From: Neisseria shayeganii 871 | Lineage (GTDB): Bacteria; Pseudomonadota; Gammaproteobacteria; Burkholderiales; Neisseriaceae | DNA: 32,000 nt | Assembly (NCBI RefSeq): GCF_000226875.1 | Contig: NZ_JH164926.1 | Location: 2,290,135-2,322,134, forward strand | Direction: 5' to 3' | In this document: piece after piece, positions 21,707-32,000 of the stretch | Layout: each line of letters starts with the position of its first letter | Position numbering within the stretch: position 1 is the first letter of the stretch | Translations under genes and position numbers: made by a program | The notes under the pieces: model-generated | Told to the model about the DNA's origin: nothing | What the model saw: the letters and a program-made list of their open reading frames with translations, nothing else | Database searches by the model: none

Positions 21707-22795
21707 TCAATAACGGGTAACCGCCACCACGCCGTGCTCGGCCTGTTGCGCGGCCAAGCGGCCGTTATCGACAAATTTCACTTGGCCGCCGGCGGCCAGC
21801 ACTTTCTCAATCATCTCGTCCACGATGTCTTCATAAGTGCGCTCGGATGCGGTGAAACCTTCCGGCAACAGCGTGAGTTGGCGGCCGTCTTCGCTGACCT
21901 CGGCAGCCAGGCTGCTGTCTTCTTCCACCACCAGCATTTCCGCCCGGCCGTCGATGGCGGCCTGCCACACCTCGTTGAGGCTGTCGACAAAGCGGTGGTT
22001 GCTCTTGGCCGCTTCCAAATCGGCAAACACTTTTTCGCGCTCCTGGCTCAGGGCTTCTTTCACCTGCGGCCAAATATGCTGTGCCAGCTGATGCTCGCTT
22101 TCTTCGTTGTGGCCGCTGTGGATATACAGCATTACCTCGTCGCTGTTGCGCGCGCCTTCGCGGAAGTGGCCGATGTTGCGGTCCACGCCCACCACCACGA
22201 TGGGGGCGGGAATCTGTTTTTGCGCTTCGGCCAAAGCATCGCCGATTTCACGCATATTGTCGGCCACAATCTGGTCGCGCACATGGCTGATGTCCTGGCT
22301 GGGGCTGGCGCTGGCCACGGTGTTGGCCAGGCTGAAAGGGAAGCCGTAGGCGTGCACTTCGTTGAGCAGGTCTTTGCGGCCGACAAACAGGCGTGAGCCA
22401 TGCTCGCTCAATACGGTGAGCAAATACAGCGGGCTGCGGTTCATGGCATACACCAGATCGCGGGTAACGAAGTTGTCTTCAATGCTCACGCGCTCGGGCA
22501 CGCGGAAGGGCAGCTTGAACGACTCGCTGTATTCGGCGCTGGCAAAAATCACCAAGCCGTCGAGATTGTGCTCATGGTCCACCTCATCGGCCAAACGATG
22601 GATAGCGGCGGCGATATCCGCCGTTTCGCGTTTGCCGAACTCCTCTTCCAAGCGGGCAACCGCTTCGCTCACCAAGTTTTTCAGCCGAATGGGGTCTTTG
22701 TCGTTGTCGGGGGAAGTGCGGTAGGTCGGCAGGGTGATGGTCACACTCGGGTAAGCCTGCTTGCTTTGGATGTCTTTGATGGTGGCCAGATTCAT
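21707..22795 (-). CDS. eRF1-like protein of the bacterial archaeo-eukaryotic release factor (baeRF) type; function unknown
   Basis: 362 aa. The N-terminus (PSVTITLPTYRTSPDNDKDPIRLKNLVSEAVARL) matches, from memory, the ...vSiYlPThr.....qDpIrLKNLl.eA... opening of baeRF-family proteins. The C-terminus ends GVVAVTRY, like the G.aAiLRY end of eRF1/Pelota domain 3. Bracketed by DUS terminators. Confidence 0.6.
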   Translation of the reverse strand: MNLATIKDIQSKQAYPSVTITLPTYRTSPDNDKDPIRLKNLVSEAVARLEEEFGKRETADIAAAIHRLADEVDHEHNLDGLVIFASAEYSESFKLPFRVPERVSIEDNFVTRDLVYAMNRSPLYLLTVLSEHGSRLFVGRKDLLNEVHAYGFPFSLANTVASASPSQDISHVRDQIVADNMREIGDALAEAQKQIPAPIVVVGVDRNIGHFREGARNSDEVMLYIHSGHNEESEHQLAQHIWPQVKEALSQEREKVFADLEAAKSNHRFVDSLNEVWQAAIDGRAEMLVVEEDSSLAAEVSEDGRQLTLLPEGFTASERTYEDIVDEMIEKVLAAGGQVKFVDNGRLAAQQAEHGVVAVTRY

Positions 22796-23014: not shown

Positions 23015-23036
23015 AGGCTACCTGAACACGTTTCAG
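23015..23036. repeat. Interrupted DUS inverted pair (full left half, right half cut after TTCAG)
   Basis: AGGCTACCTGAA-cacgt-TTCAG then ATAATATC... Every other pair in the window continues GTAGCCT at this point. Confidence 0.85.
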
Positions 23037-23193
23037 ATAATATCTTAGCCGGTCAATGTAAAAATTTTGTGATTTATGCAATTTGCTGATTTTTATAGTT
23101 AAATTGTGTTACGCTTTTGCATTGGCAATAGCTTACCCGCCGCTTCCGTATTGATGGAGGCGGTTTTTTTATGGGTGCATGGCGTTGCGCCGC

Positions 23194-24162
23194 CTATGCG
23201 GTTTTGGACGGAAGGCCGTATCTGGACGGATCGAAATCTTGACCGTTGTGCCAGAGATTCCAGGCGATGGCGGCCAGTTTGCGCATGAGTGCGACGAGAA
23301 TAACCTTTGTGGGCTTGCCTTTGGCTTTCAGCCTATCAACAAATTTGGCGAAAAAGCCGAAGCGATAGGCGACCAAAGCTGGCATATAGAGTTCGCCTTT
23401 CAAGATGCGGTTTCCGTATTTTGACAGGCGCTCTTTTCTGTTTACCGATGTACCGGATTTTTGCCATTGCGGAGCTAATCCGGCAAAGGCAATGAATTTG
23501 TTTTCGGTGTCAAAGCGGTACATGGTCAGATAATGTGCGAGAACTGAAGCGGTGGTTTGGCCAATGCCGGGAATGGTTTGCAGTTTGGCCGCTGCCTGCC
23601 TAGATTCCGCCTGCTCAGTCAAAGTAGCCAATTGCTCTTTGACTGCTTCAATGTGGTTTTTGAATTCTTCGGCCTGCTTGGCCAAGATGGTTTTTACAAA
23701 CGGATCTTTGGCCGTTTTGATGCGATTTTTGATGCCGGTTAAATCGCCCCTAAGCTGGCGGAACAGAGTAATGGCGCGACGCATGGCATACTGATCTGCG
23801 CTTGGCTTGACGTAATCTGGCTTTGGCTTCAAATCGCGACAATATTCCGCAATCAGCTTGGCATCTTGTTTGTCTGTTTTGGTGCGCTGAAAGCGGCTTT
23901 TGGCAAAAGATTTAATTTTCAGCGGGTTCACAACGCTTACAGGATAACCTTGTTCAACCATGAAATCGGCCAATCCTTCGTAGTAGACGCCGGTGGCTTC
24001 CATGCAGATATGCGGCTGGATTCCGAGCTCTTCGATCGCTGCCTGCGCTTTCAGGTAGCCTGAACGGTTATTACTGATCTGTAAATAGTGCTGTTTGTTT
24101 TCCAGCAACAAAAAGCATAAGTCAATTTTATCTTTTGAGACATCACAGCCAAGTATTGTCAT
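23194..24162 (-). CDS. IS110-family (DEDD RuvC-like plus Ser Tnp domain) transposase/recombinase
   Basis: 322 aa. Has ILGCDVSKDKID (first D), CMEATGVYY (E), KTDKQDA (D..D), a central coiled-coil region, IPGIGQTTA and AGLAPQWQKSGTS (conserved Ser). This is the classic IS110/IS1111 layout. AAGGAAAA RBS upstream. Confidence 0.9.
   Translation of the reverse strand: MTILGCDVSKDKIDLCFLLLENKQHYLQISNNRSGYLKAQAAIEELGIQPHICMEATGVYYEGLADFMVEQGYPVSVVNPLKIKSFAKSRFQRTKTDKQDAKLIAEYCRDLKPKPDYVKPSADQYAMRRAITLFRQLRGDLTGIKNRIKTAKDPFVKTILAKQAEEFKNHIEAVKEQLATLTEQAESRQAAAKLQTIPGIGQTTASVLAHYLTMYRFDTENKFIAFAGLAPQWQKSGTSVNRKERLSKYGNRILKGELYMPALVAYRFGFFAKFVDRLKAKGKPTKVILVALMRKLAAIAWNLWHNGQDFDPSRYGLPSKTA
24050..24061 (-). 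repeat. DUS inside the IS110-family recombinase coding sequence
   Basis: Exact TTCAGGTAGCCT (codons SGYLK on the minus strand). It is the only perfect DUS to the right of 23037. Confidence 0.85.
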
Positions 24163-24361
24163 ATGGAATTTTCCTTATATTCAGCTTTGTAGCTATTGAT
24201 AATATCCAATCTTAATGATTCCGGCGTCCAATCTGAAACCCAGCCTGAAGGCTTGGTGGCTTTACGGACTTGTGCCGGTCTTGCCGCGCAAGGCAAGGTA
24301 GCTGATAGTAGCAAGCAATTGCTGATAATTTAAAGGTTTTTTGGGCGTTCCCTTCGGGCAT

Positions 24362-24466
24362 GGCGGTGCGTTCTCGCCTGCGGTTATTTCAAACGATGGT
24401 TTACGTTTGAAAAACCTCCGACAACCGAACGCATTTTCCGCTGGATACATGCCCTGCGGGGCGGGC
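24362..24466 (+). repeat. Structured ~105-nt repeat, copy R1
   Basis: GGCGG box, a 9-bp stem TTTCAAACG/CGTTTGAAA (24387-24395/24404-24412) with an 8-nt loop, an AAAACCTCCGACAACCG box, and a second CCGC/GCGG hairpin. Confidence 0.75.
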
Positions 24467-24583
24467 TAAAATTCTGTAATTTCTCATGCTTGCAAAAACA
24501 GAACGGAGCCTGGGTCTCCGCCTCTTCAGGTCTATATCCCTAACGCATCTATTCCCACCCCGAGCAGCGGCCGCAGCGGCAAA

Positions 24584-24688
24584 GGCGGCATGCCCTCGCC
24601 TATGGTTATTTCAGGTGATAGTTTGCACCTGAAAAACCTCCGGCAACCGAGCATGATTTCCGCTGGTCTTTACCACTGCGGCCGCCGC
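24584..24688 (+). repeat. Structured ~105-nt repeat, copy R2
   Basis: Same architecture as R1. Stem TTTCAGGTG/CACCTGAAA (24609-24617/24626-24634). A gap-free hand alignment to R1 gives 70/104 identical positions. Confidence 0.75.
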
Positions 24689-24756
24689 TCACCACCCCAT
24701 TTTTTTTTATTTCTACAGGCCGGCAGGCGTTTGTGGGAGCAAGCCGCTACGTTAAT

Positions 24757-24950
24757 TTTTAAAGCATCAGTCCGGCTATCGGGTCTATGGGGCTGGTGCG
24801 ATTGAAGCATCCATAAAAAAGCAGTCAATACGGTATTCATAAAGAAATTCGTTGAATTTCTTTACAAAGCTTCCGTATTGACTGCTTTTTTATTCCTGCT
24901 TTTTCAATCGCGCCCCATACGACTCCGATAGCCGGACTGATGCTTTAAAA
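24757..24950. repeat. 194-nt nested imperfect palindrome (candidate packaging signal / minus-strand origin / bidirectional terminator)
   Basis: Outer arms are TTTTAAAGCATCAGTCCGGCTATCGG...CGATTGAA (24757-24806) and TTCAATCG...CCGATAGCCGGACTGATGCTTTAAAA (24903-24950). Inside is a perfect 19-bp IR, AAAAAAGCAGTCAATACGG (24815-24833) / CCGTATTGACTGCTTTTTT (24873-24891). The innermost IR is AAAGAAATT/AATTTCTTT (24841-24849/24855-24863). Confidence 0.8.
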
Positions 24951-25031
24951 AAAAACTTCGCTAACCGTTTTGCCCCTCCAACCCCTCCTACCGTCCTGAG
25001 GCGGGGAAAACCCAACCTGAAAGGAAAAGAC

Positions 25032-25376
25032 ATGGAAATCATCATCAAAGAAACCAACACCCGTGAAACCTTGTCAATTATTGACCACAAAACAGGCTGC
25101 AACTTTATCGCCGATTTTATTGGAAACACCGGCGCTCTAGATGATGGACAGTTTGAATGGAATGAAGAACAAAATGCCTATATCTGCAACCAAGAAACCT
25201 TCGACTGGTGGGAAAAGGTTATAAGCGACAATCAAGCGCTAGAAAATCGCATCGCCGAATTAATTGAGGAACACGGCTCAGATGCCGTCTATAAAGTCGT
25301 GGCCGATGCCGCCTACGGCGACCTAGAAGACCACGCAGCAATTATAAATTCTGAACTTGATGAAAATTTCAAATAA
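25032..25376 (+). CDS. Hypothetical very acidic small protein (114 aa; 26 D/E vs 7 K/R)
   Basis: ATG 25032 preceded by CCTGAAAGGAAAAGA. Low GC relative to the chromosome. Encoded on the strand opposite to all the phage structural genes. No family recognised. Confidence 0.6.
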   Translation: MEIIIKETNTRETLSIIDHKTGCNFIADFIGNTGALDDGQFEWNEEQNAYICNQETFDWWEKVISDNQALENRIAELIEEHGSDAVYKVVADAAYGDLEDHAAIINSELDENFK

Positions 25377-25398
25377 AAAAGCCCTGAAAGGAAAAGAT

Positions 25399-25665
25399 AT
25401 GAAAATTCTATACTTCTTAAGCCACGATGGAGACAACTATTTCATCACGAAAAGTTACAAAGAAGCAGTAAATTGGCAAGAAAGCCAAGAACTGAATTTT
25501 GCAACGGAGATTTGCTATGATGAAGATTTCAGAATCACACATATAGACCGGAACGAGATAGATTGGTTCGCAGAAAGCATATCCGATGAAATAGGAAGCC
25601 CCCAGTTCCAAGAGGCGAAAGAGATGCTAAACAAAGAATACGAATTCCCCGAAGAATTGAAGTAA
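25399..25665 (+). CDS. Hypothetical very acidic small protein (88 aa; 21 D/E vs 8 K/R)
   Basis: The internal ATG 25399 is preceded by the same CCTGAAAGGAAAAGA box as the upstream ORF. Followed by an intrinsic terminator at 25669-25690. No family recognised. Confidence 0.55.
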   Translation: MKILYFLSHDGDNYFITKSYKEAVNWQESQELNFATEICYDEDFRITHIDRNEIDWFAESISDEIGSPQFQEAKEMLNKEYEFPEELK

Positions 25666-25668
25666 CAC

Positions 25669-25690
25669 AGCCCCGGAAGGGGCTTTTCTT
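25669..25690 (+). terminator. Intrinsic terminator after the second acidic ORF
   Basis: AGCCCC-ggaa-GGGGCT followed by TTTCTT, 4 nt after the stop codon. Confidence 0.7.
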
Positions 25691-25742
25691 ATGAACCGTT
25701 ACCGTGACGGTAGCGGTTACCCACCCTGCCACACTCAAAAAA

Positions 25743-25846
25743 GGCGGAAGCCCTCGACTGCGGTTCTTTCAAGTGATGGCAGGCACTTGAAAAACCTTCG
25801 CCAACCGGACTTGTTCCGCATGGTCTTTTTCGAATGCGGCTTCCCA
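25743..25846 (+). repeat. Structured ~105-nt repeat, copy R3
   Basis: Same architecture as R1. Stem TTTCAAGTG/CACTTGAAA (25767-25775/25784-25792), with box AAAACCTTCGCCAACCG. Confidence 0.75.
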
Positions 25847-25924
25847 CCCGATATTATTTCTTTCTTAAATAACGAAAAATTTCACTAATAATCTGGGAGA
25901 TAATACGACGGATGATGTAGTTTT

Positions 25925-26986
25925 TCATGATTCGGGAGCCTTAATTGGCGTTACAGCCTGTCGTTCAGGCTCTTTGTAGGGATTGAACGGCAGGCCGTTT
26001 TCGGTATAGCTGATGCATAATTCGGTACTGATTTCGGCCAATTGCGTGCCTTGATCGCTGTAGCAGTTGCAGGAACTGCCGGAGGCGATGCAGCCGGCGA
26101 CGCGCTCGAAGGTGCGGACCTGGCGGACATTATTGTAAATAGGCTTGGATTCGGGCTTTTCGGCCAGCGTAGGGACGAAATCAGCAGGGCTTAGATTTTG
26201 GCTTTGTGCGGCGGTAAAGCCTTCCTGAGCCGTAGGCACATTGCCGCCATAGGCGGCTGTGGCCAGCGGCTCAGAAGCAGATTCAGCCACTGCTGCCGCT
26301 TCGCTGCCGCCGGTGGCGCCGGAATATGCGCCGTAGACGCCCCAAGCTTTCCAGCCGATGAAGGCGAGTATGGCGGCAAATGCCCAAACGACCAACGGCA
26401 CACGTTTTTTGAATTTTTGATGTTTGCTGGCTGATTTGTAGTATTTGAATGCTGCCTTTGGCGGCTTCCAAGATGCGGATTCCGTGCCGGACAGGCCGGC
26501 AGGATTATCAAGCGTGGTAACGCATTTGTACCACCAATACTGCTTCATGCCGACGGATTTTCGCTCAAGATGGATATGCTTTGAAACCAAATTACGCACG
26601 AATATATCCAATTGACTTGGATGCTGTGTCATGAGGATTAAGGTGAATCCGTCATGCCGCAGTTCGGAAAGTTTCTGCACATAGGGCGGCACGGCTTTGG
26701 CGGCGGAGCGAACGGGATACGTCCAATGCGCTTCATCAACAATTAAAACGGCACCGGTCGGCAGAATTTCATCCAGCGGGGCGGACTGAATTTCTTCCTT
26801 AGTCAATTCGTGGGCATGGAATTTGGCGGCATCCAAGCCGTCTATATGGCAGAAATATAAGGGGCGGTCTATTGGCGTGCCGTCTTCCGCGGTGGTTTTA
26901 AATAGGCCGTCTTCATTGGTCAGAATCATATTGACAGCACGACTGGTTTTGCCGGTGCCCATATTGCCGGTTATCAGGTAAATCAT
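25925..26986 (-). CDS. Zot-like / pI-type inovirus assembly ATPase
   Basis: 353 aa. N-terminal Walker A (ITGNMGTGKTS), Walker B-like LIVDEAH, and a central TM (VPLVVWAFAAILAFIGWKAWGVYG), which together give the Zot/pI architecture. Sits directly after the pVI-like gene. Confidence 0.85.
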   Translation of the reverse strand: MIYLITGNMGTGKTSRAVNMILTNEDGLFKTTAEDGTPIDRPLYFCHIDGLDAAKFHAHELTKEEIQSAPLDEILPTGAVLIVDEAHWTYPVRSAAKAVPPYVQKLSELRHDGFTLILMTQHPSQLDIFVRNLVSKHIHLERKSVGMKQYWWYKCVTTLDNPAGLSGTESASWKPPKAAFKYYKSASKHQKFKKRVPLVVWAFAAILAFIGWKAWGVYGAYSGATGGSEAAAVAESASEPLATAAYGGNVPTAQEGFTAAQSQNLSPADFVPTLAEKPESKPIYNNVRQVRTFERVAGCIASGSSCNCYSDQGTQLAEISTELCISYTENGLPFNPYKEPERQAVTPIKAPES

Positions 26987-27015
26987 ACGTCTTACACTCC
27001 GTATTCAGTTTGCCG

Positions 27016-27312
27016 TTATCTAGGCATGACAAAAGTAAGTTTGTTTAATGTGGTCATACTGATTCTGAAGGCAAAAGCACCGAACAGGTAGCCCAAGCCT
27101 TGACCGAATCCGCCAATCATTAACAGATTGAAGATATCGGCAGGCATGGAATTGGCGGCGTCAAGAATATAGGCTTTGAATTTGCCCAAAGCCAAAATGT
27201 AACCGCCGTAGGTGACGAAGGTCAGACCGGTGGCAATGATGATGCGGACAATCAGCAGTTTGAGCAGGATACCGATTAAAGGTATCAATGCGGCAGCAGC
27301 GGGCAGAGCCAT
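27016..27312 (-). CDS. Inovirus minor coat protein, pVI-like (DUF2523-type)
   Basis: 98 aa and almost entirely hydrophobic with 3 TM segments. Sits between the pIII-like and Zot genes, where pVI lies in Ff/CTX-type genomes. Confidence 0.6.
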   Translation of the reverse strand: MALPAAAALIPLIGILLKLLIVRIIIATGLTFVTYGGYILALGKFKAYILDAANSMPADIFNLLMIGGFGQGLGYLFGAFAFRISMTTLNKLTFVMPR

Positions 27313-27316
27313 GGCG

Positions 27317-28762
27317 TTATCCTTGTTTTAGACCGCCGAAAGAAATGTATGCGGCAGAGACGATGAAGCAGATCAGGACAATGAAACGGATGGTTTCCAT
27401 GAAGGAGCAGAGCGGCTGATACGATACCGATACGGGCTTGCCCATGACGTGAAAGGTTTTGGGTGCAGGACAAACGCCGGTTGACGGCAAGAACAAGTCT
27501 TCCTGCCATGTGCGGTTATCGACGTGAACGGGTATTTTGATATCGTCAAACTGGCCGGGATCGGGCTGCCCCATTTGCTGGCAGGCGAGTATTTCGGGAT
27601 GCTCTTTGCACAGGTCAAACGGGGGCGGTTGTTCAGTGCCGGTTTGATTGCCGGACTGGCTGCCGGATTGGCCGCCCGTGCCGGGCACAGTATCGCTGCC
27701 GTTGGCCGGCGGATTATCAGGAGCCGGAGCTTCTGGGCTGTTGGGCTGAAGATCGGGACGATCAATTAAGGTTTCCTGAACGCAAGATTGGCCGTCATCA
27801 CAATCGTAGAATTGCCAACGCGCCTGCTTGGCTTTGCCGTCTTTGGAATCGGTGTAGGGCTGGCTATTGACGATGGTGCCGGGCAGAACGTGGACTTTTG
27901 GCTGCGACCATTCGGAATCCGGCAACTGGGCGGCTTCGAGGATGGCTTCCGGGCGCTGCTGGAGGAGCGGGGAGACAATGCGCTCATATTCGGCGGGCGT
28001 GAGCAGACGATTCGGATTCCTGACGACATCCCAACTGTAAAAATTACGCTCATCATTACCGAGGGCGACAACGCAAGACCCAGTCTCAACGCCATCATAC
28101 CTGAGATATCTGTATCGCTGATAATTAGGCAACGATGGTTTGATAATATCCCAAGCATCACGGCACAGCTGATCGACAACAACACCGTAGTTAGATATGC
28201 CGAGATTGGACACCATGCCGCGCTGTTTGACGAGATGGATTTTACCCGCATTGCCAATGGTATACACACGGACCAAATACTCGGAGGACGACAAAAATTC
28301 ACCGCTGGCGTCGTCATATTGATAGCCGTCGTCTTCGAGCATAGTCAGGATTTCGCCGAGGATGAGGCCGCCGACAAGGCCTTGCGGTGTGAGACGGGCG
28401 AGCTTGGTGCGGCTCAGGAGATTGCGGAGAACGGTGGCTTTGGGGACGGTACGGGAGATGGTGGCGGGGACTTTGGCGCTAGAGACTGCGCCAGAGGTGG
28501 CAGAGCGGAGACTTAAAGATTCAGCAGTGCCATGAACATAATTACCACCGATAACCTTAGCTGTGATAATACCATTAGGGCGAGAACTAATAACACCTGC
28601 TAAACGAACGTGACCATCAGGAGTTTTAATTAGCCCTAATTCAGCAAATGCTTTAGATGGGAATAGACATAAAATAACCATCGGCAGGACGAAATATATT
28701 AATTTCACTCTTTCCGATAATAAACGAAGAGCGGTCAGAAAATAGAATTTCAAAAGTCCCAT
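27317..28762 (-). CDS. Inovirus adsorption/minor coat protein, pIII-like
   Basis: The largest structural ORF. Has an N-terminal signal-like segment (KLIYFVLPMVILCLFPSKAFA), a Pro/Gly/Ser/Gln linker (PEAPAPDNPPANGSDTVPGTGGQSGSQSGNQTGTEQPPP) and a C-terminal membrane anchor (IRFIVLICFIVSAAYISFGG). The start is uncertain: ATG 28828, ATG 28762 (used here), GTG 28708 and ATG 28681 are all possible. Confidence 0.6.
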   Translation of the reverse strand: MGLLKFYFLTALRLLSERVKLIYFVLPMVILCLFPSKAFAELGLIKTPDGHVRLAGVISSRPNGIITAKVIGGNYVHGTAESLSLRSATSGAVSSAKVPATISRTVPKATVLRNLLSRTKLARLTPQGLVGGLILGEILTMLEDDGYQYDDASGEFLSSSEYLVRVYTIGNAGKIHLVKQRGMVSNLGISNYGVVVDQLCRDAWDIIKPSLPNYQRYRYLRYDGVETGSCVVALGNDERNFYSWDVVRNPNRLLTPAEYERIVSPLLQQRPEAILEAAQLPDSEWSQPKVHVLPGTIVNSQPYTDSKDGKAKQARWQFYDCDDGQSCVQETLIDRPDLQPNSPEAPAPDNPPANGSDTVPGTGGQSGSQSGNQTGTEQPPPFDLCKEHPEILACQQMGQPDPGQFDDIKIPVHVDNRTWQEDLFLPSTGVCPAPKTFHVMGKPVSVSYQPLCSFMETIRFIVLICFIVSAAYISFGGLKQG

Positions 28763-28949
28763 ATTTATCCGACACTTTACTATAAAAATTATGCACTTTT
28801 TCAAGCTCAAAAATAGAGCCTGTTTCAAAAGTCAAATAAACAACCTGATAAAACACCCACGCCAGCGGCTTACCCTGAAACTGCGGCTCAAACGAGCGGT
28901 GCATCAATTCGTCTTCGCTGATGTAGAAATAACCTTCTTCGGGGAACAT
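28653..28949 (-). CDS. Hypothetical phage protein (98 aa)
   Basis: ORF with ATG at 28947-28949. Its 3' half runs into an AT-rich patch and overlaps the possible 5' end of the pIII-like ORF. No family recognised. Confidence 0.4.
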   Translation of the reverse strand: MFPEEGYFYISEDELMHRSFEPQFQGKPLAWVFYQVVYLTFETGSIFELEKVHNFYSKVSDKYGTFEILFSDRSSFIIGKSEINIFRPADGYFMSIPI

Positions 28950-28999
28950 GGTTCATCCTTTCGTTAATTGTTAAGAAACGTCAGGAATGTACCACAGTT

Positions 29000-29071
29000 T
29001 CAATCTTTGAACAGCATCACGCCGATCATGGCGACGAAGGCGAAGCCGACGAGAAAGTAAAAGTCAATCAC
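29000..29071 (-). CDS. Candidate 23-aa hydrophobic peptide (pVII/pIX-like minor coat candidate)
   Basis: Not in the ORF track because it is too short. GTG at 29069-29071 lies 3 nt after the preceding stop and is preceded by GAGG. Hand translation is VIDFYFLVGFAFVAMIGVMLFKD. Size, position and hydrophobicity resemble the tiny inovirus tip proteins. Confidence 0.3.
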   Translation of the reverse strand: MIDFYFLVGFAFVAMIGVMLFKD

Positions 29072-29074
29072 GGC

Positions 29075-29353
29075 CTACCTCATTTGTTTGCGAAGCAAGG
29101 TAAAAACGTACATGGCCGCCATGGCACCGAAGAACAGCCAGCCGAGTTCCGTTCCGTCTTTGAAGTTTTGTGCCGGATCGCATTCGGGCAGCTTGGCTTG
29201 AAGTATCTGGCCGTTTAGCTGCCAATGCTGGCCGGTATATTCCGGCTGGATGATTTTGCCGTCCGTGGTGACGACAGGGGCTACCAAGCTGTAATAATGG
29301 TTTTCAGCCTGTTGTTTGTCTGTAAAACATTGATTACCGACCTGGTAGCCCAT
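29075..29353 (-). CDS. Hypothetical inovirus minor coat/membrane protein (92 aa)
   Basis: Lies immediately downstream of the major coat gene. Has a C-terminal TM plus basic tail (LGWLFFGAMAAMYVFTLLRKQMR). Confidence 0.5.
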   Translation of the reverse strand: MGYQVGNQCFTDKQQAENHYYSLVAPVVTTDGKIIQPEYTGQHWQLNGQILQAKLPECDPAQNFKDGTELGWLFFGAMAAMYVFTLLRKQMR

Positions 29354-29370
29354 GACGACACCTTAGCGCA

Positions 29371-29586
29371 TTACTTCATCACGCGACGGATCAGGCCGAT
29401 CACAAAGATGGCCGCTAATACACCAATCACCAGCCAGCCAGCTTCGAGGCCGTCTGCTTTGGCACCTTCCAAAGCGGTTTTCACACCGTCAGGCAAAGCG
29501 GCCATAGCCATTGCCGGCAGGGCCATTACACCGCCAAAGGCGGCCATTTTTGCGCCGTAGCGCTTCGCAACGTTCATTGCTTTCAT
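29371..29586 (-). CDS. Inovirus major coat protein (pVIII-like)
   Basis: The internal ATG 29584-29586 follows AAGGAAAA. The 71-aa product has a signal peptide ending AMAMA, a mature part with an acidic N-terminus (LPDGVKTALEGAKADGLE), a hydrophobic core (AGWLVIGVLAAIFVIGLI) and a basic C-terminus (RRVMK). Confidence 0.8.
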   Translation of the reverse strand: MKAMNVAKRYGAKMAAFGGVMALPAMAMAALPDGVKTALEGAKADGLEAGWLVIGVLAAIFVIGLIRRVMK

Positions 29587-29665
29587 AGCATTTTCCTTTT
29601 TCGTAAATTGTTTTGGGCGGCTGTGTGTAAGGGATTTGATGCCGCCGCCCGAAGCACCAATCTGC

Positions 29666-29872
29666 TTAACTTTCCACCGCTTCCCAAAAGGCGAAGACGG
29701 CAAACTGTTCTCCGATCTCATCCATGCCGGCGGTTAAGGCGTCATCACGAGTTTCGAACTTGCCGGCCAATTTGATATAAGGCGTCAATCCGATATCGCC
29801 TGCCGGATCGGGGTAAAGGAATTCGAAGCTTTCCAAATCCTGCACGATGTAGCGCATTTCAAAGTTCGGCAT
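29666..29872 (-). CDS. Hypothetical phage protein (68 aa)
   Basis: ATG at 29870-29872 lies 4 nt after the upstream stop, while the longer track start at 29905 would overlap the upstream gene. Acidic, with no family recognised. Confidence 0.45.
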   Translation of the reverse strand: MPNFEMRYIVQDLESFEFLYPDPAGDIGLTPYIKLAGKFETRDDALTAGMDEIGEQFAVFAFWEAVES

Positions 29873-29876
29873 GGCG

Positions 29877-30200
29877 TCAGCCTTTCTTTTGTCCTTCCGG
29901 TACACGGAAATCTTTAATCACGACGGTTTCTTTACCGCTGCCGTTGGTGACGCGGGCAAGCTGGATTTCCAACTCGCAAGGGAAAACCAAGCCGCGGAAG
30001 CGTTCGAAATTGCTGCTGTCGCCGAAACGGACTTTGGCGAGACCCAAGCCGAGGGCGTTGCCGGAAGCGTCATTGAACGGTGCGGCTTTGAAAACGGTGC
30101 AACTGTCGATGATGTTGCCTTCGATTTCGCCCTTAAATTTGGTTACGCCCATGACAATGGCGCGTTCGAATACGGGCTGTTGGAGCATGTCAAAATTCAT
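29877..30200 (-). CDS. Candidate ssDNA-binding protein (pV-like, by position and size)
   Basis: 107 aa. Its start overlaps the Rep stop (ATGA-type overlap at 30197-30200). This is the same position and size as gene V/ORF2 in Ff- and Nf-type inoviruses. No motif-level confirmation. Confidence 0.45.
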   Translation of the reverse strand: MNFDMLQQPVFERAIVMGVTKFKGEIEGNIIDSCTVFKAAPFNDASGNALGLGLAKVRFGDSSNFERFRGLVFPCELEIQLARVTNGSGKETVVIKDFRVPEGQKKG

Positions 30201-31639
30201 GATGGATTCCTTTCTAGAGAGACAATTTCAGGTTCTGGGATATAGGTGGGATACTCTTGTTTCCGAATCAGCGATTCGGCAATATGGCCGGCCTGCTGAA
30301 GGCGTTTGCGAGCTTCGATTTCTTCATACAGTGCATGGCATTCAGCATCGGTGGGCATGTATTCATCAATCGTCATGCGGAATTCGTCCAAATCGAAGGG
30401 CGCAAAACCGTCATGGTGCAAATAGTGAACCCTGATGGCATCGCAGTTATATTCGGACGGATCCAGCCCTTTCGGGTATTTGCCTTCATCGGCCACCAGA
30501 CGGCGGACGATTTCCGAATCGGGGAAACCGGCATCCACGAGAAAACGGACAAAGCGGCCGACTTGGTTTCTGGCATGGAATTCCCGCTGTTCGAAAGTGA
30601 GGTTCACCACATTGGCTTTAGTTTCAATACGATTGGCCGCTACCTGAAACAGTTCTTCACCGATCGGGAAAGCACCCGTCAAATACTGACCCGGCTTAAT
30701 CAAAATATCGTGCGGTATCACACAATCATGTTTGCGGAACTCGACTTCGAAGCGAACCCACGGGCTGGACTTGTCGCCGAACTTTTTGCCTTTCTCGTAA
30801 ATGCGCGCTAGCTTGGACGAGCCTTTGCGACCGATGTAAAGCGTTTTGCCGGAACCATCTTCAATATTCCAGGCAGTGCCGCGGCATTCGGCTTTAGGTG
30901 TAACGTTATGGTTGTCGTAACGGCCTTTTTTGTGATCAACCAAAGCCTGATCAGGCGTGTATTCGCCGTTGAAAAAATCATGGGCCACATCGCAACGGGT
31001 AATGCGCGGTTTGATCGCCTGTTGCAGGAACTCATACAAACGGCCTTCCCAACCGGGCAGGGCGGCTTGGCAGCCGACGGCATTTAAATCAATCAATACG
31101 GTGTTACGTTGACCGCCGTGATGAAGCGTGCCGTATGCCGCGTTATCGGGGCCGATTTGGTAATAAGCCTGATAGAAGAACTTGCCTTTACCAAGCATTT
31201 TTTTGGTAATGCCGAAACCGAAGATTTTTTCGAGTGATTCGCTACAGGCGGAAATAAAATCGTTTTGGCCGACCAGACGGTTTTGCAGGTAGTGAAAAAT
31301 GGTGTCTTCGTGAAAAGTGAAGGTGAGGTAGTCAATCAGCGCACCGTCTTCACGGCCTTTACGCAAGGGAATTTCAAGAAGGTTGCCTTTGGCGTCGGTA
31401 ACGTAGGTTTGGAAATATTCGGTGGTTTGAATATTGGCCCAGTCGATTTGCTCCCCCGCTGAAGGTTTTTGGGTTTCTTGCTCCCCCCCTGTTAGCCTAG
31501 GGGGGGCATCTGCCGCCGCTGCCGCGTCAGCCGCCGCTAAGCGGCTGTCTGCCGCGTCATCTGGCGGCAGATACTTTGATGCGGCAATGACAACATCAAT
31601 TTCGGCGGCATCCGGTAAGGTGTTTCTTGTGCGAGACAT
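30197..31639 (-). CDS. Rolling-circle replication initiator (RstA / Rep_trans-like)
   Basis: 480 aa. Has RCDVAHDF, YIGRKGSSKLARIYEKGKKFG and WVRFEVEFRK blocks typical of the replication-initiation-factor family used by CTX/Nf-type inoviruses. The N-terminal ~60 aa are low-complexity and Ala/Asp-rich. Confidence 0.75.
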   Translation of the reverse strand: MSRTRNTLPDAAEIDVVIAASKYLPPDDAADSRLAAADAAAAADAPPRLTGGEQETQKPSAGEQIDWANIQTTEYFQTYVTDAKGNLLEIPLRKGREDGALIDYLTFTFHEDTIFHYLQNRLVGQNDFISACSESLEKIFGFGITKKMLGKGKFFYQAYYQIGPDNAAYGTLHHGGQRNTVLIDLNAVGCQAALPGWEGRLYEFLQQAIKPRITRCDVAHDFFNGEYTPDQALVDHKKGRYDNHNVTPKAECRGTAWNIEDGSGKTLYIGRKGSSKLARIYEKGKKFGDKSSPWVRFEVEFRKHDCVIPHDILIKPGQYLTGAFPIGEELFQVAANRIETKANVVNLTFEQREFHARNQVGRFVRFLVDAGFPDSEIVRRLVADEGKYPKGLDPSEYNCDAIRVHYLHHDGFAPFDLDEFRMTIDEYMPTDAECHALYEEIEARKRLQQAGHIAESLIRKQEYPTYIPEPEIVSLERNPS

Positions 31640-31649
31640 GGATCACACC

Positions 31650-31955
31650 TCAAGCTGCGAACAAATCGACTTGGTACAGACGCAGGTTTAAATCGACCTC
31701 GTCATAAAACGGCACGTCCAAATCATGAGCGATACGCTCAGCTTTGTTGCGGGCGAAATTTTGGACAAATTCGGCGGTAGAACCGACGTCATCAAAGGAA
31801 AAGGTGTCCACGCAGGCGCTATGCTGTTGGCTGAGTGATACGAAGATGCACATGCGCGACCCCTGAAAAGCTAAGGTTACGCATGGGTAAATTTGATTGT
31901 TGTATTGATACACAGGCAGCCCCTTACACTTGGCAATAAAAATCCCCGAATCCAA
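31650..31955 (-). CDS. Hypothetical phage protein (101 aa)
   Basis: ORF directly upstream of rep on the same strand. No family recognised. Confidence 0.4.
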   Translation of the reverse strand: MDSGIFIAKCKGLPVYQYNNQIYPCVTLAFQGSRMCIFVSLSQQHSACVDTFSFDDVGSTAEFVQNFARNKAERIAHDLDVPFYDEVDLNLRLYQVDLFAA

Positions 31956-32000
31956 AATCTTGAACTTGTCAAGACCCTGAAAACGGGGGTCAATATATAA

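What the first reader, a model, noticed from the sequence alone, without database searches (positions are those of the whole stretch)
23015..24206. IS110/IS1111-family recombinase unit sits exactly inside a DNA-uptake-sequence inverted pair
Every intact DUS pair in this window reads AGGCTACCTGAA, N3-6 (32 nt in the 21602 pair), TTCAGGTAGCCT (2660, 7061, 11524, 13870, 21602). At 23015 the pair reads AGGCTACCTGAA-cacgt-TTCAG and then breaks at 23036/23037 into AT-rich DNA. After another 1152 bp, just past the recombinase start, the sequence resumes GTAGCT (24189-24194). Deleting 23037-24188 would therefore rebuild TTCAG|GTAGCt.

The unit has 26 nt upstream and 157 nt downstream of a 322-aa DEDD/Ser recombinase gene. 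That is the layout of the IS1111 subgroup, where the element-encoded guide (bridge/seek) RNA lies 3' of the gene.

Three further details support a guided insertion:
- AGCTATTG in the 3' non-coding end (reverse complement of 23126-23133) is identical to the flank at 24191-24198.
- TTCAG is directly repeated at 23032-23036 and 24180-24184.
- GATAATATC is directly repeated at 23036-23044 and 24198-24206.

An alternative reading is that the recombinase is the integration module of the adjoining inovirus. Neisseria Nf/MDA phages carry an IS110-type pivNM/irg gene and land in dRS3 repeats. In that case the missing GTAGCCT half would lie at the far prophage end, outside this window.

Either way, a mobile element appears to use the species' own uptake signal/terminator hairpin as a landing site. 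That would give it hundreds to thousands of targets per genome, and each insertion would destroy a DUS pair.
Basis: partly seen in the sequence, partly recalled or inferred. Interest (0 to 1): 0.78.

Follow-up and report, generated by a model that had tools for sequence, protein, structure and literature searches.

The report
Filamentous phage lands in uptake-signal hairpin
A 9-kb filamentous prophage, not a small insertion sequence, has split one of the host's DNA-uptake-sequence hairpins. It was apparently steered there by a short guide ("bridge") RNA encoded just upstream of its IS110-type recombinase, and related phages aim the same machinery at other hosts' uptake sequences.

Summary
Five phage-free alleles of the same locus from other samples carry the intact pair AGGCTACCTGAA-acgtg-TTCAGGTAGCCT.

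The inserted element is not the proposed 1,152-bp IS. It is the whole Nf/MDA-type inovirus prophage, 23037-31999 (about 8.96 kb), and the window stops one base into its far-end CT core.

GTAGCT (24189), GATAATATC (24198) and TTCAG (24180) are not a DUS remnant. They lie in the donor-binding part of a structured ~140-nt RNA gene (24163-24301, minus strand) directly 5' of the recombinase. This is the IS110/IS621 layout, not the IS1111 layout.

The RNA is found once, in that position, in 80 of 81 related phage loci. Its stems covary and its loops match the flanks with the polarity described for bridge RNAs.

Six independent insertions of this clade lie in eikDUS pairs. Other lineages hit king-, AG- and muc-type DUS, dRS3 or CRISPR repeats.

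This is a new variant of known kinds (bridge recombinase, Nf prophage). RNA guidance itself is inferred, not shown.

The parts
23015..23026 (+). Intact DUS (AGGCTACCTGAA), the surviving partner of the split inverted pair
   Evidence: present in the same place in the empty alleles
23027..23036 (+). Pair spacer (cacgt) plus TTCAG, the remnant of the split DUS. The AG at 23035-23036 is the right-end copy of the CT crossover core
   Evidence: Comparison of the window with empty alleles L100, L101, L103, L104 and L105. The same -CT- junction is seen in L003, L013, L095, L097 and L098
23037..23193 (-). Right end (RE) of the prophage: 157 nt of non-coding DNA ending ...TTGACC(23051-23056)GGCTAAGATATTAT. 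It contains a hairpin plus T-run that reads as a terminator on the + strand (23139-23164)
   Evidence: The -35-like TTGAC box 15-18 nt from the end is conserved in relatives. The RE-CT-LE junction in L067 forms TTGACT-17-TATATT
23194..24162 (-). IS110-family DEDD/Ser recombinase, 322 aa
   Evidence: Pfam PF01548 + PF02371. NCBIfam NF033542 'IS110 family RNA-guided transposase', 215.6 bits against a cut-off of 140. PDB matches to ISCro4 (E 6e-53) and IS621 (E 3e-50) over the full length. D7, E55, D97, D100, S236 and S239 are invariant in 18 homologues
24163..24301 (-). Candidate bridge RNA gene. It has a 5' stem-loop (24297-24280), a target loop and a donor loop whose 3' side overlaps the recombinase ribosome-binding site
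   Evidence: The covariance model finds one hit here and one directly 5' of the recombinase in 80 of 81 related loci. Of all cells, 93.5% are paired against 67.7% in shuffles, and 18 of 20 pairs show compensatory change. The MFE fold reproduces the helices, z = -2.1
24255..24263 (-). Left target guide AAAGCCACC (5' side of loop 1), same sense as the target CAGGCTAC-C (6 of 8 positions match)
   Evidence: L003 has AAAGCTACC against its own flank AAAGCTAC-C (9/9)
24233..24241 (-). Right target guide GGGTTTCAG (3' side of loop 1), the reverse complement of CT-GAAACCC. The observed right flank is CT-GAAACGT
   Evidence: It covaries with the flank across lineages, for example L098 GCCTTTCAG against CT-GAAAGGT
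24198..24206 (-).
   Evidence: It covaries with the element's own right end: L013 AATATTATC, L003 ATGGTATC
24173..24194 (-).
   Evidence: The stem covaries: AGCT/AGCT, AGCC/GGCT, AGG/CCT.
24302..25031 (-). Non-coding phage region with a long conserved hairpin (24746-24960)
   Evidence: 85% identical to L013 and L093. The Rfam hit 'MIR841' is only a long-hairpin look-alike, 50 bits against a gathering score of 200
25032..25665 (+). Two small ORFs antisense to the phage structural genes (114 aa, and 102 aa as an ORF, called as 88 aa in Logan contigs). No family match
25925..28681 (-). Phage assembly and adsorption genes: Zot (25925-26986), DUF2523 (27016-27312) and TspB-like (27317-28681 as called)
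29371..31916 (-). Coat protein B (29371-29586), a 107-aa ORF (29877-30200), the Rep_trans initiator (30197-31639) and a small leader ORF (31650-31916)
31944..31999 (-). Left end (LE) of the prophage: TATATATTGACCCCCG... with a hairpin plus T-run (31944-31988)
   Evidence: Homologous to L013 and L093 positions 10-52 and to the L003 left junction. TATATATT is the universal left-end start in the family
32000..32000 (-). T of the left-end copy of the CT core. The window ends here. The predicted continuation on the + strand is GGTAGCCTGTTTGGCAATCAGAGCCC...
   Evidence: Inference

Best explanation
**What it is.** Window positions 23037-31999 are one Nf/MDA-type filamentous (inovirus) prophage. It integrated as a whole into one DUS of an inverted DUS pair, which is the terminator-like hairpin 3' of a fructose-bisphosphate aldolase gene. 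The site is AGGCTAC|CT|GAAACGTG.

**The integrase.** It is the phage's own IS110-family DEDD/Ser recombinase (23194-24162, minus strand).

**The guide RNA.** Directly 5' of that gene the phage encodes a ~140-nt structured RNA built like an IS621-type bridge RNA: a 5' stem-loop, then two internal loops.
- In loop 1, the 5' side (AAAGCCACC) has the sense of the left target plus core. The 3' side (GGGTTTCAG) is complementary to core plus right target.
- In loop 2, the 5' side (GATATTATC) equals the phage right end plus core. The 3' side (AATATAAGG) is complementary to core plus left end.

**Proposed mechanism.** The circular replicative form carries an RE-CT-LE donor junction. There the -35 box of the right end and the TATATT of the left end form a promoter. 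The recombinase-RNA complex pairs loop 2 with this junction and loop 1 with the DUS, and exchanges strands at the CT. The prophage ends up flanked by CT. One DUS of the pair is destroyed and the other is kept.

**Shown:**
- the element's extent and the empty site;
- the CT-flanked junctions (in this window the right-end one only; both ends in the relatives L013 and L003);
- the recombinase family;
- the conserved, covarying RNA structure;
- the guide/flank covariation.

**Inferred:**
- that the RNA is made and actually guides the reaction;
- the junction promoter;
- the far junction of this particular copy.
For: **Extent of the element**
- Inovirus genes (Rep_trans, coat B, TspB, DUF2523, Zot) fill 25925-31639 on the recombinase strand.
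- The same gene order, ending in a homologous recombinase, is seen in Paralysiella L003, Kingella L106, Conchiformibius L109 and 80 IMG/VR inovirus loci.
- The window's ends are collinear with L013 and L093.

**Empty site**
- L100, L101, L103, L104 and L105 carry the intact pair exactly where the window has the phage right end.

**Junctions**
- L013/L093: AAGGCTAC-CT-TATATATTGACC.
- L094: ATATTAT-CT-GAAACTTTTCAGGTAGCCT.
- L095, L097 and L098 also have right-end junctions in eikDUS pairs.

**Recombinase**
-.

**RNA**
- Model R2 finds exactly one copy 5' of the recombinase in 80 of 81 loci. In 750 kb it finds no others except two inverted copies.
- 93.5% of cells are paired against 67.7% in shuffles, slid controls give 20-43%, and 18 of 20 pairs show compensatory change.
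- The fold of the window copy agrees.

**Guides**
- The right target predicted from loop 1 matches the observed flank at 4.84 of 7 positions against 2.03 of 7 for non-cognate pairs (25 pairs, permutation p<1e-4).
- The left target matches at 5.70 of 8 against 4.37 of 8 (20 pairs, p<1e-4).
- The polarity is the one described for IS621: loop 1 is the target loop and loop 2 the donor loop, the 5' side pairs the bottom strand, the 3' side pairs the top strand, and the core is included (Durrant 2024, PMC11208160).

**Junction promoter**
- L067 carries RE-CT-LE reading TTGACT-17-TATATT.
Against: - There are no expression or biochemical data.
- No consensus-strength promoter is found upstream of the RNA gene.
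- In all five eikDUS-clade members read, the left target guide (AGCCAC-C) has the same two mismatches to the DUS (GGCTAC-C). Recognition of the left half may therefore be looser than simple pairing, or the register may differ.
- The left junction of this copy lies outside the window and is inferred.
- Alignment A6 was fitted to the model's structure, which inflates pair counts. The compared loci are also phylogenetically related.
- Locating right-end junctions used the donor guide, so the donor-guide/right-end match is circular except where empty alleles or contig ends define the junction independently (window, L013).
- Rfam 15 gave no bridge-RNA hit.
Confidence: 0.85

Rival explanations
1. 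Positions 23037-24188 are an autonomous ~1.15-kb IS1111-type insertion sequence that landed inside the DUS pair, lies next to an unrelated prophage, and has its guide (seek) RNA in the 157-nt 3' end.
For: - TTCAG|...|GTAGCT would nearly rebuild a DUS half.
- The 3' non-coding end (157 nt) is longer than the 26 nt assigned to the 5' end.
- An 8-nt match (AGCTATTG) links the 3' end with 24191-24198.
Against: - Empty alleles continue GTAGCCTGTTTGGCAATC after TTCAG, not GTAGCTATTGATAAT.
- Positions 24163-24301 are a conserved phage RNA gene.
- The exact recombinase sequence and its 55-87% identical relatives were never seen as a standalone 1.2-kb unit: wherever enough upstream sequence was held they lie at the end of an inovirus genome, and the shorter contigs (L095-L099) still carry the phage-type RNA gene and right end.
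- The model of the 5' RNA gave no hit in the 3' end; no seekRNA model was available to test it directly. The nearest solved relatives are IS110-group enzymes.
Confidence: 0.02
2. Protein-only site recognition. The phage integrase recognises the CT-containing sites by itself, as was assumed for Piv/MooV-type enzymes. On this view the conserved upstream element is a regulatory leader or a set of pseudo-recombination sites rather than a guide RNA.
For: - There are no RNA data.
- The left target guide is mismatched at two positions.
- The DNA of the donor loop can itself act as a recombination site, with inverted or broken copies in L034, L043 and L044.
Against: - Four helices are kept by compensatory changes.
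- Loop sequences covary with both flanks and both element ends, with the strand polarity of IS621.
- There is full-length homology to two experimentally solved bridge recombinases.
- The target changes between lineages track changes in loop 1 while the protein family stays the same.
Confidence: 0.08
3. The DUS is hit only incidentally. The element's real specificity is a short motif (about AC-CT-GAAA). In eikDUS hosts nearly all copies of that motif are DUS, so the association reflects abundance and tolerated (intergenic) sites rather than adaptation to the uptake signal.
For: - L003 sits in AAAGCTAC-CT-GAAG, which is not the Paralysiella DUS (AGGCTGCCTGAA).
- L094 shows a left end joined to AAACC-CT inside a phage Rep gene.
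- The guide has two mismatches to the DUS.
- Some lineages use non-DUS sites (L109, the L061 type).
Against: - Six of six insertions of the eikDUS clade are in DUS, and in inverted pairs.
- Three further lineages independently target their own hosts' dialects, with guides changed accordingly: AG-DUS L048/L053, mucDUS L031/L055/L075/L092, and king-type L106.
- This rival disputes 'why', not 'what'.
Confidence: 0.25

Closest known systems
IS621 / ISCro4 bridge recombinase with bridge RNA (IS110 group; Durrant et al. 2024, PMC11208160; PDB 8wt6, 9t56)
   Same: - The recombinase has the DEDD + Ser architecture and aligns over its full length (E 3e-50 and 6e-53).
- The RNA is encoded 5' of the gene and has two internal loops, the first for the target and the second for the donor.
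- The 5' sides have the sense of the left halves plus core, and the 3' sides are complementary to the core plus right halves.
- The core is the dinucleotide CT.
- A promoter is split across the circle junction.
   Different: - The mobile unit is a ~9-kb replicating, virion-forming phage, not a 1.2-1.5-kb IS.
- About 7.7 kb of phage genes separate the left terminus from the RNA gene, so the RNA is not in the 'left end'.
- The right end is 157 nt long.
- The junction promoter would drive the phage replication module rather than the RNA and recombinase.
- The right donor guide overlaps the ribosome-binding site.
- Nothing here has been tested biochemically.
Nf1/MDA-phi and Nf2-4 filamentous prophages of Neisseria meningitidis and N. 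gonorrhoeae, with their IS110-type (pivNM/irg) transposase (Kawai 2005; Bille 2005; summarised in PMC7058167)
   Same: - The gene order is the same: Rep, coat, TspB, Zot, transposase.
- Recombinase identity is 43-47%.
- Integration is at a repeat containing a CT motif.
- The upstream RNA and the TATATATT left end are the same.
   Different: - The target is the DNA uptake sequence (eikDUS inverted pair) instead of dRS3.
- The host belongs to the Eikenella/N. shayeganii group.
- In the papers found, integration is ascribed to the protein alone. No paper in the searched library links dRS3 or Nf phages with bridge RNA or seekRNA.
IS1111-group elements with seekRNA / 3' bridge RNA, and IS110-family elements that target host repeats (REP sequences, attC, Tn21 inverted repeats; cited in PMC11208160; ISPpu9, PMC12288879)
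   Same: It is an IS110-family recombinase that lands in an abundant, conserved, hairpin-forming genomic repeat.
   Different: - The RNA here is 5' of the gene, not 3'.
- No long subterminal inverted repeats were seen by eye in the two ends (not searched for formally).
- The protein is closest to IS110-group enzymes.
- The cargo is a phage.
CTX-phi-type inoviruses integrated by host XerCD at dif
   Same: It is an integrative filamentous phage with Rep and Zot modules.
   Different: It uses its own recombinase and a (presumed) RNA guide. It has many possible sites per genome instead of one dif site.

Membership tests
IS110-family bridge recombinase system (IS110/IS621 group) | Recombinase with an N-terminal RuvC-like DEDD domain and a C-terminal Tnp domain carrying the catalytic Ser | tested here: met
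   PF01548 + PF02371. NF033542 scores above its cut-off. D7, E55, D97, D100, S236 and S239 are invariant. Full-length PDB matches to IS621 and ISCro4
IS110-family bridge recombinase system (IS110/IS621 group) | Structured non-coding RNA encoded 5' of the recombinase, with two internal loops | tested here: met
   One hit per locus, always directly upstream of the gene. Helices are supported by compensatory changes
IS110-family bridge recombinase system (IS110/IS621 group) | Loop 1 matches the target and loop 2 the donor. The 5' sides pair the bottom strand (8-9 nt), the 3' sides pair the top strand (4-7 nt), and the core is included | tested here: met
   (definition). In the window the left donor guide matches 9/9, the right donor guide 7/7 including the core, the right target guide 5/7 plus the core, and the left target guide 6/8
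IS110-family bridge recombinase system (IS110/IS621 group) | Element flanked by a duplicated core dinucleotide (CT) | tested here: inconclusive
   Met at the right end of the window and in the empty allele, and at both ends in L013 and L003. The left junction of this copy is cut off by the window end
IS110-family bridge recombinase system (IS110/IS621 group) | Minimal IS (~1.2-1.6 kb) with a long left end holding the RNA next to the terminus, and a short right end | tested here: not met
   The element is 8.96 kb. The RNA gene lies about 7.7 kb from the left terminus. The right end is 157 nt
IS110-family bridge recombinase system (IS110/IS621 group) | RNA-dependent, reprogrammable recombination | not testable with these tools
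   This needs expression data and a recombination assay
IS1111 subgroup (seekRNA / 3' bridge RNA) | Guide RNA in a long right end 3' of the gene, and long subterminal inverted repeats | tested here: not met
   The conserved RNA is 5' of the gene. The right end has hairpins but no guide segments conserved across relatives. The ends share only a short ATA/TAT-type symmetry
Nf/MDA-type integrative inovirus | Inovirus gene set (Rep_trans, coat B, TspB, pVI-like DUF2523, Zot) followed by an IS110-type transposase | tested here: met
Nf/MDA-type integrative inovirus | Integration into dRS3 repeats (ATTCCCNNNNNNNNGGGAAT) at a CT | tested here: not met
   The CT core is kept, but the site is the eikDUS pair. 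dRS3 junctions are seen only in the L014-type and L080-type loci

The most novel reading that the evidence does not exclude
Nf-type filamentous phages across the Neisseriaceae carry a reprogrammable bridge RNA. This RNA has repeatedly been retargeted to whichever short repeat is most abundant and most strongly conserved in the current host:
- the host's own DUS dialect, namely eikDUS (window, L013, L095, L097, L098), the AG-DUS and mucDUS terminator pairs (L048, L053, L075, L092) and the king-type DUS (L106);
- dRS3 in the pathogenic Neisseria;
- the repeats of the type II-C CRISPR array (L035, L036, L038, L039).

On this reading, guide reprogramming is part of host adaptation for these phages. 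The competence signal that protects the species' gene pool doubles as a phage attachment site that the host cannot easily mutate away.
Probability: 0.55. Interest if true: 0.85.

Novelty: new variant of a known kind. Interest (0 to 1): 0.72.

Why it matters
DUS are the commonest and most strongly selected short repeats in Neisseriaceae genomes (2,245 eikDUS in N. shayeganii 871 and 3,269 in E. corrodens; PMC3630211). In inverted pairs they are associated with transcription terminators.

A phage that uses them as attachment sites has hundreds to thousands of mostly intergenic landing sites. The host cannot discard these sites without harming its own transformation.

If the upstream RNA really is the guide, three things follow:
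- These phages are natural bridge-recombinase systems that move a ~9-kb replicating cargo.
- The long-known dRS3 specificity of the meningococcal disease-associated phage would have a simple RNA-based explanation.
- The different targets in different hosts (DUS dialects, dRS3, CRISPR repeats) would be a natural series of guide reprogramming events that can be tested directly.

I found no paper in the searchable library that connects Nf phages, DUS and bridge RNAs. That library lacks most subscription journals.

Tried and rejected
- **Source genome for the far end.** Exact-protein look-ups of the recombinase, of Rep and of the leader ORF returned only three short Logan contigs, or nothing. One search repeated and was wasted.
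- **Genome-contig scan with the single recombinase.** No relative was found. The second and last scan used ExbB. The baeRF gene and the site are not syntenic in other Eikenella species, and the closest contig (L004) ends in ExbD, so this gave no empty site. The empty site was finally found through the exact baeRF protein.
- **Viral-contig searches.** The single protein and the 26-mer left-end pattern both found nothing. The alignment-based scan worked.
- **Rfam at E up to 10.** Only chance look-alikes were returned, and no bridge-RNA family.
- **RNAalifold on MAFFT alignments of divergent members.** It recovered only the outer helices, so I specified the structure by hand and iterated covariance models. 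Model R1, built from three sequences, was too narrow. Model R2 worked.
- **My first regex for the donor guide.** It picked the wrong TTG in most loci and was replaced by model-aligned columns.
- **Right-end flanks of L094-L099 against the window and the Eikenella loci.** Only DUS-length matches were found, so none of those sites is present as an empty site in the sequence held.
- **The AGCTATTG inverted match between the right end and the donor loop.** It is kept in close relatives, and L098 has a similar 7-of-8 match with a changed central base, but it is absent in L003 and the Nf types. I leave it unexplained.
- **XerCD/dif-type integration.** I considered this and dropped it because the phage carries its own recombinase; I did not search the junctions for a dif-like site.
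Full report
**1. The observation**

- AGGCTACCTGAA at 23015-23026, cacgt, then TTCAG at 23032-23036 followed by AT-rich DNA.
- TTCAG at 24180-24184, GTAGCT at 24189-24194, and GATAATATC at 23036-23044 and 24198-24206.
- A 322-aa ORF at 23194-24162 on the minus strand.

The 12-mer occurs 24 times (at most 1 mismatch) against 0.06 expected. There are 20 perfect copies, 10 of them in five inverted pairs with spacers of 6, 3, 5, 6 and 32 nt.

This is the AG-eikDUS dialect described for Eikenella corrodens and Neisseria shayeganii. Inverted DUS pairs are known to be associated with terminators (PMC3630211). The recombinase is 100% identical to a protein that NCBI labels N. shayeganii.

**2. What the inserted element is**

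The ORF is an IS110-family recombinase.
- It has PF01548 + PF02371.
- It matches NF033542 'IS110 family RNA-guided transposase' at 215.6 bits, above the cut-off of 140.
- It aligns over its full length with the solved bridge recombinases ISCro4 (E 6e-53) and IS621 (E 3e-50).
- The DEDD and Ser positions are invariant in 18 homologues.

To its right, all on the same strand, lie Zot, DUF2523, TspB, coat B and Rep_trans. This is an Nf/MDA-type inovirus.

The exact protein was seen only next to these phage genes. Its relatives also close an inovirus gene set:
- Paralysiella testudinis (55% identity, L003);
- Kingella negevensis (L106) and Conchiformibius kuhniae (L109);
- all 80 IMG/VR loci retrieved, which sit at the end of 7-10-kb inovirus contigs.

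The window's ends are collinear with L013 and L093. Positions 32000-31958 correspond to locus positions 10-52. Positions 24293-23030 correspond to the RNA, the recombinase and the right end.

**3. The junctions and the empty site**

All sequences here are read on the recombinase strand.
- The window's right end is ...TTGACCGGCTAAGATATTAT-CT-GAAACGTGTTCAGGTAGCCTGTTTGC.
- The window's last bases are T-TATATATTGACCCCCG.
- L013 and L093 begin AAGGCTAC-CT-TATATATTGACCCCCG. L013 ends AAATATTAT-CT-GAAACTTT.
- L003 has AAAGCTAC-CT-TATATATTAGCCCCC and CATGGTAT-CT-GAAGTCATG.

The element is therefore flanked by a duplicated CT, and the window stops one base into the left copy.

A look-up of the exact neighbouring baeRF protein returned five contigs from other samples that lack the phage (L100, L101, L103, L104, L105). 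All read ...TGATTGCCAAAC AGGCTACCTGAA ACGTG TTCAGGTAGCCT GTTTGCTTTGCTGGAGCC... immediately 3' of a fructose-bisphosphate aldolase gene.

The phage lies in AGGCTAC|CT|GAAACGTG, and prophage-specific DNA is 23037-31999 (8,963 bp).

The empty allele continues GTAGCCTGTTTGGCAATC after TTCAG. The GTAGCT at 24189 is therefore not the missing half, and the 1,152-bp unit is rejected.

**4. The RNA**

The ~140 nt upstream of the start codon are conserved in L013 and L003, with compensatory changes in every helix.

A covariance model, iterated once, finds exactly one copy directly 5' of the recombinase in 80 of 81 loci. In 750 kb the only other hits are two inverted copies, in L034 and L043.

On the resulting alignment:
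- 93.5% of cells are standard pairs, against 67.7% in shuffles and 20-43% when partners are slid;
- 18 of 20 pairs have changes on both sides.

One caveat applies: the alignment is fitted to the model.

The window copy folds into the same helices on its own, with z = -2.1. Rfam has no matching family.

**5. The loops**

Durrant et al. describe the polarity for IS621 (PMC11208160). The first internal loop binds the target and the second the donor. [quoted passage not shown]

The window RNA has the same arrangement (coordinates):
- **Loop 1, 5' side:** AAAGCCACC (24255-24263) against the left target CAGGCTAC-C (6 of 8 match).
- **Loop 1, 3' side:** GGGTTTCAG (24233-24241), the reverse complement of CT-GAAACCC, against the observed CT-GAAACGT (5 of 7 plus the core).
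- **Loop 2, 5' side:** GATATTATC (24198-24206), equal to the right end plus C (9 of 9).
- **Loop 2, 3' side:** AATATAAGG (24173-24181), the reverse complement of CT-TATAT at the left end.

These segments covary with the flanks across lineages.
- The right target predicted from loop 1 matches at 4.84 of 7 positions, against 2.03 of 7 for non-cognate pairs (25 distinct pairs).
- The left target matches at 5.70 of 8, against 4.37 of 8 (20 pairs).
- Both tests give permutation p<1e-4.

Examples:
- L098: GCCTTTCAG against CT-GAAAGGT.
- L014 type: GATGACGAG against CT-CGTCATT, a dRS3 half.
- L048: GAGACGGCCT against CAGACGGC-CT.

That stem covaries as AGCT/AGCT, AGCC/GGCT and AGG/CCT.

The weak point is the left target guide. 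It carries the same two mismatches to the DUS in all five members of the eikDUS clade that could be read.

**6. The landing site**

Independent right-end junctions of this clade all lie in eikDUS inverted pairs:
- window: GAAACGTGTTCAGGTAGCCT;
- L095 (87% identity): GAAACGGTTTTCAGGTAGCCT;
- L097 (68%): GAAACTATTTTCAGGTAGCCT;
- L094/L013: GAAACTTTTCAGGTAGCCT;
- L098/L099 (61%): GAAAGGTTTTCAGGTAGCCT.

Each insertion destroys one DUS and the hairpin, and keeps the partner DUS.

Other lineages behave similarly.
- L106 (K. negevensis) sits in AAGCAGC|CT|GAAAA, the host's king-type DUS, within a pair.
- L048 and L053 sit at the AG edge of AG-DUS (...AGGCCGTCTGAAtattTTTCAGACGGC|CT|TTTCT).
- L031, L055, L057, L059, L075, L079 and L092 sit at the same position of mucDUS.

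Not all lineages use a DUS. dRS3 (the L014 and L080 types), a non-DUS site in Conchiformibius (L109) and CRISPR repeats are also used.

L003 sits in a DUS-like but non-cognate site. DUS use is therefore recurrent rather than universal, and a short-motif explanation remains a partial rival.

**7. Mechanism proposed**

The circular replicative form carries an RE-CT-LE donor junction. A related contig shows this junction, reading TTGACT-17 nt-TATATT (L067). The window's ends would give TTGACC-18-TATATT. This is a split promoter like that of IS110-family circles, here pointing into the replication genes.

The recombinase-RNA complex would pair loop 2 with this junction and loop 1 with the DUS, and exchange strands at the CT.

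Shown:
- the element's extent and the empty site;
- the CT-flanked junctions (for this copy the right-end one; both ends in L013 and L003);
- the recombinase family;
- the RNA structure;
- the covariation of guides with flanks.

Inferred:
- transcription of the RNA (no strong promoter was found);
- guidance by the RNA;
- the junction promoter;
- this copy's left flank.

**8. Comparison with what is known**

Nf1-4/MDA phages are known to integrate through an IS110-type transposase at dRS3 with a CT motif. Filamentous prophages have been noted in N. shayeganii (PMC7058167).

IS110-family elements are known to use bridge RNAs or seekRNAs and to target host repeats such as REP (PMC11208160; PMC12288879).

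In this library I found nothing that links Nf phages to bridge RNAs, or phage integration to DUS or to Neisseria CRISPR repeats.

I therefore file this as a new variant of known kinds. The recombinase and RNA are those of an IS621-type system. The vehicle is an Nf-type phage. The target (a DUS pair) and the architecture (the RNA internal to a 9-kb element) differ from both.

**9. Verdict**

Its alternative and its general idea are supported.
- Confidence that this is a whole inovirus integrated in a DUS pair is about 0.95.
- Confidence that a bridge RNA guides the integration is about 0.8-0.85.
- Interest is 0.72.

Noticed in passing
L035 (LE junction 208, RE junction 8072), L039 (334, 8174), L036 (329, 8156), L038 (RE 7388): A related inovirus lineage (46% recombinase identity) is inserted inside type II-C CRISPR arrays. 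The repeat is split as GTTGTAGCTCC|CT|TTCTCATTTCGCAGTGCTACAAT. Full repeats occur every 66 nt on both sides (3 upstream and 23 downstream in L035), and the neighbouring spacers differ between loci. Loop 1 of its RNA (AAGTTCCC / GGGAGAAAG) fits this repeat. That this is the Neisseria Cas9 repeat is from my own memory of the sequence. No report was found.
   Followed up: partly
L048 (LE 3038), L053, L055, L031, L057, L059, L075, L079, L092: Inoviruses from IMG/VR contigs (hosts not identified here; the flanks carry AG-DUS or mucDUS) are inserted at the AG edge of AG-DUS or AG-mucDUS: TTCAGACG[G/A]C|CT|TTTC. In L048, L075 and L079 this is the second copy of an inverted pair, i.e. the 3' foot of a terminator hairpin followed by its T-tract. 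The left target guides read ..ACGGCCT or ..ACGACC accordingly.
   Followed up: partly
L106:2518 and L106:~11215 (Kingella negevensis CP123447): A complete prophage with both junctions in the host's king-type DUS (AAGCAGC|CT|GAAAA), within an inverted pair. A second partial left-end copy lies at 2729.
   Followed up: partly
L034:1198-1342 (minus), L043:4718-4866 (minus), L044 upstream of its recombinase, L058: The DNA that encodes the 3' side of the donor loop carries, on its opposite strand, a copy of CT-TATAT(A). It seems to act as a pseudo-donor site. In L034 the right end is joined to the inverted RNA gene (AGTAGTAT-CT-TATATATTCAGAATC...). In L044 host-like DNA abuts ...CATATAAGGGTAATCCCATG. 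This could underlie the inversions and rearrangements reported around irg/piv genes.
   Followed up: no
L094 (reverse complement) positions ~40-75: A phage left end is joined to GAAAAAGAAACC-CT. This sequence lies inside the Rep gene of the same phage type (L013 ~700-735, AAACC-CT-GAACAAG). The phage has apparently inserted into another copy of itself at a target look-alike, or the contig is a chimeric assembly.
   Followed up: no
window 24050-24061 (minus strand, inside the recombinase gene): The only DUS in the 9-kb prophage lies on the sense strand of the recombinase gene (AGGCTAC-CT-GAAAGCG). The adjoining 23 kb of host DNA has 22 copies (at most 1 mismatch). This DUS is also a near-perfect target for the phage's own system. 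It is kept in L013 and L097 and degenerate in L095 (GGTTACCTGAA).
   Followed up: partly
window 23126-23133 and 24191-24198: The 8-nt inverted match (AGCTATTG / CAATAGCT) between the right end and the donor-loop stem region is kept in L095. It persists in L013 and L097 (GCTATTG), and L098 has a similar 7-of-8 match with a changed central base (AGCTTTTG / CAAAAGCC). It is absent in L003 and the Nf types. It may be pairing between the 3' UTR and the donor loop, or chance.
   Followed up: partly
window 24746-24960: A ~215-nt near-perfect hairpin in the phage intergenic region, 85% conserved in L013 and L093. Rfam reports it as plant MIR841 at 50 bits against a gathering score of 200, a spurious long-hairpin match. 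It is probably the phage origin or packaging signal.
   Followed up: no
window 31484-31512: A C7...G7 inverted tract (GCTCCCCCCCTGTTAGCCTAGGGGGGGCAT) lies in the 5' part of the Rep gene. Nf-type loci have the same kind of tract (CCCCC-CT-TATCTAACAGGGGGGG).
   Followed up: no
window 21707-22795; L005-L009; L100 against L101: The baeRF-family gene next to the insertion site is absent downstream of tonB-exbB-exbD in other Eikenella species, where synteny ends at the 21602 DUS pair. In L100 it has an AraC/EamA neighbour instead of exbD. The phage therefore sits at the edge of a variable region.
   Followed up: no
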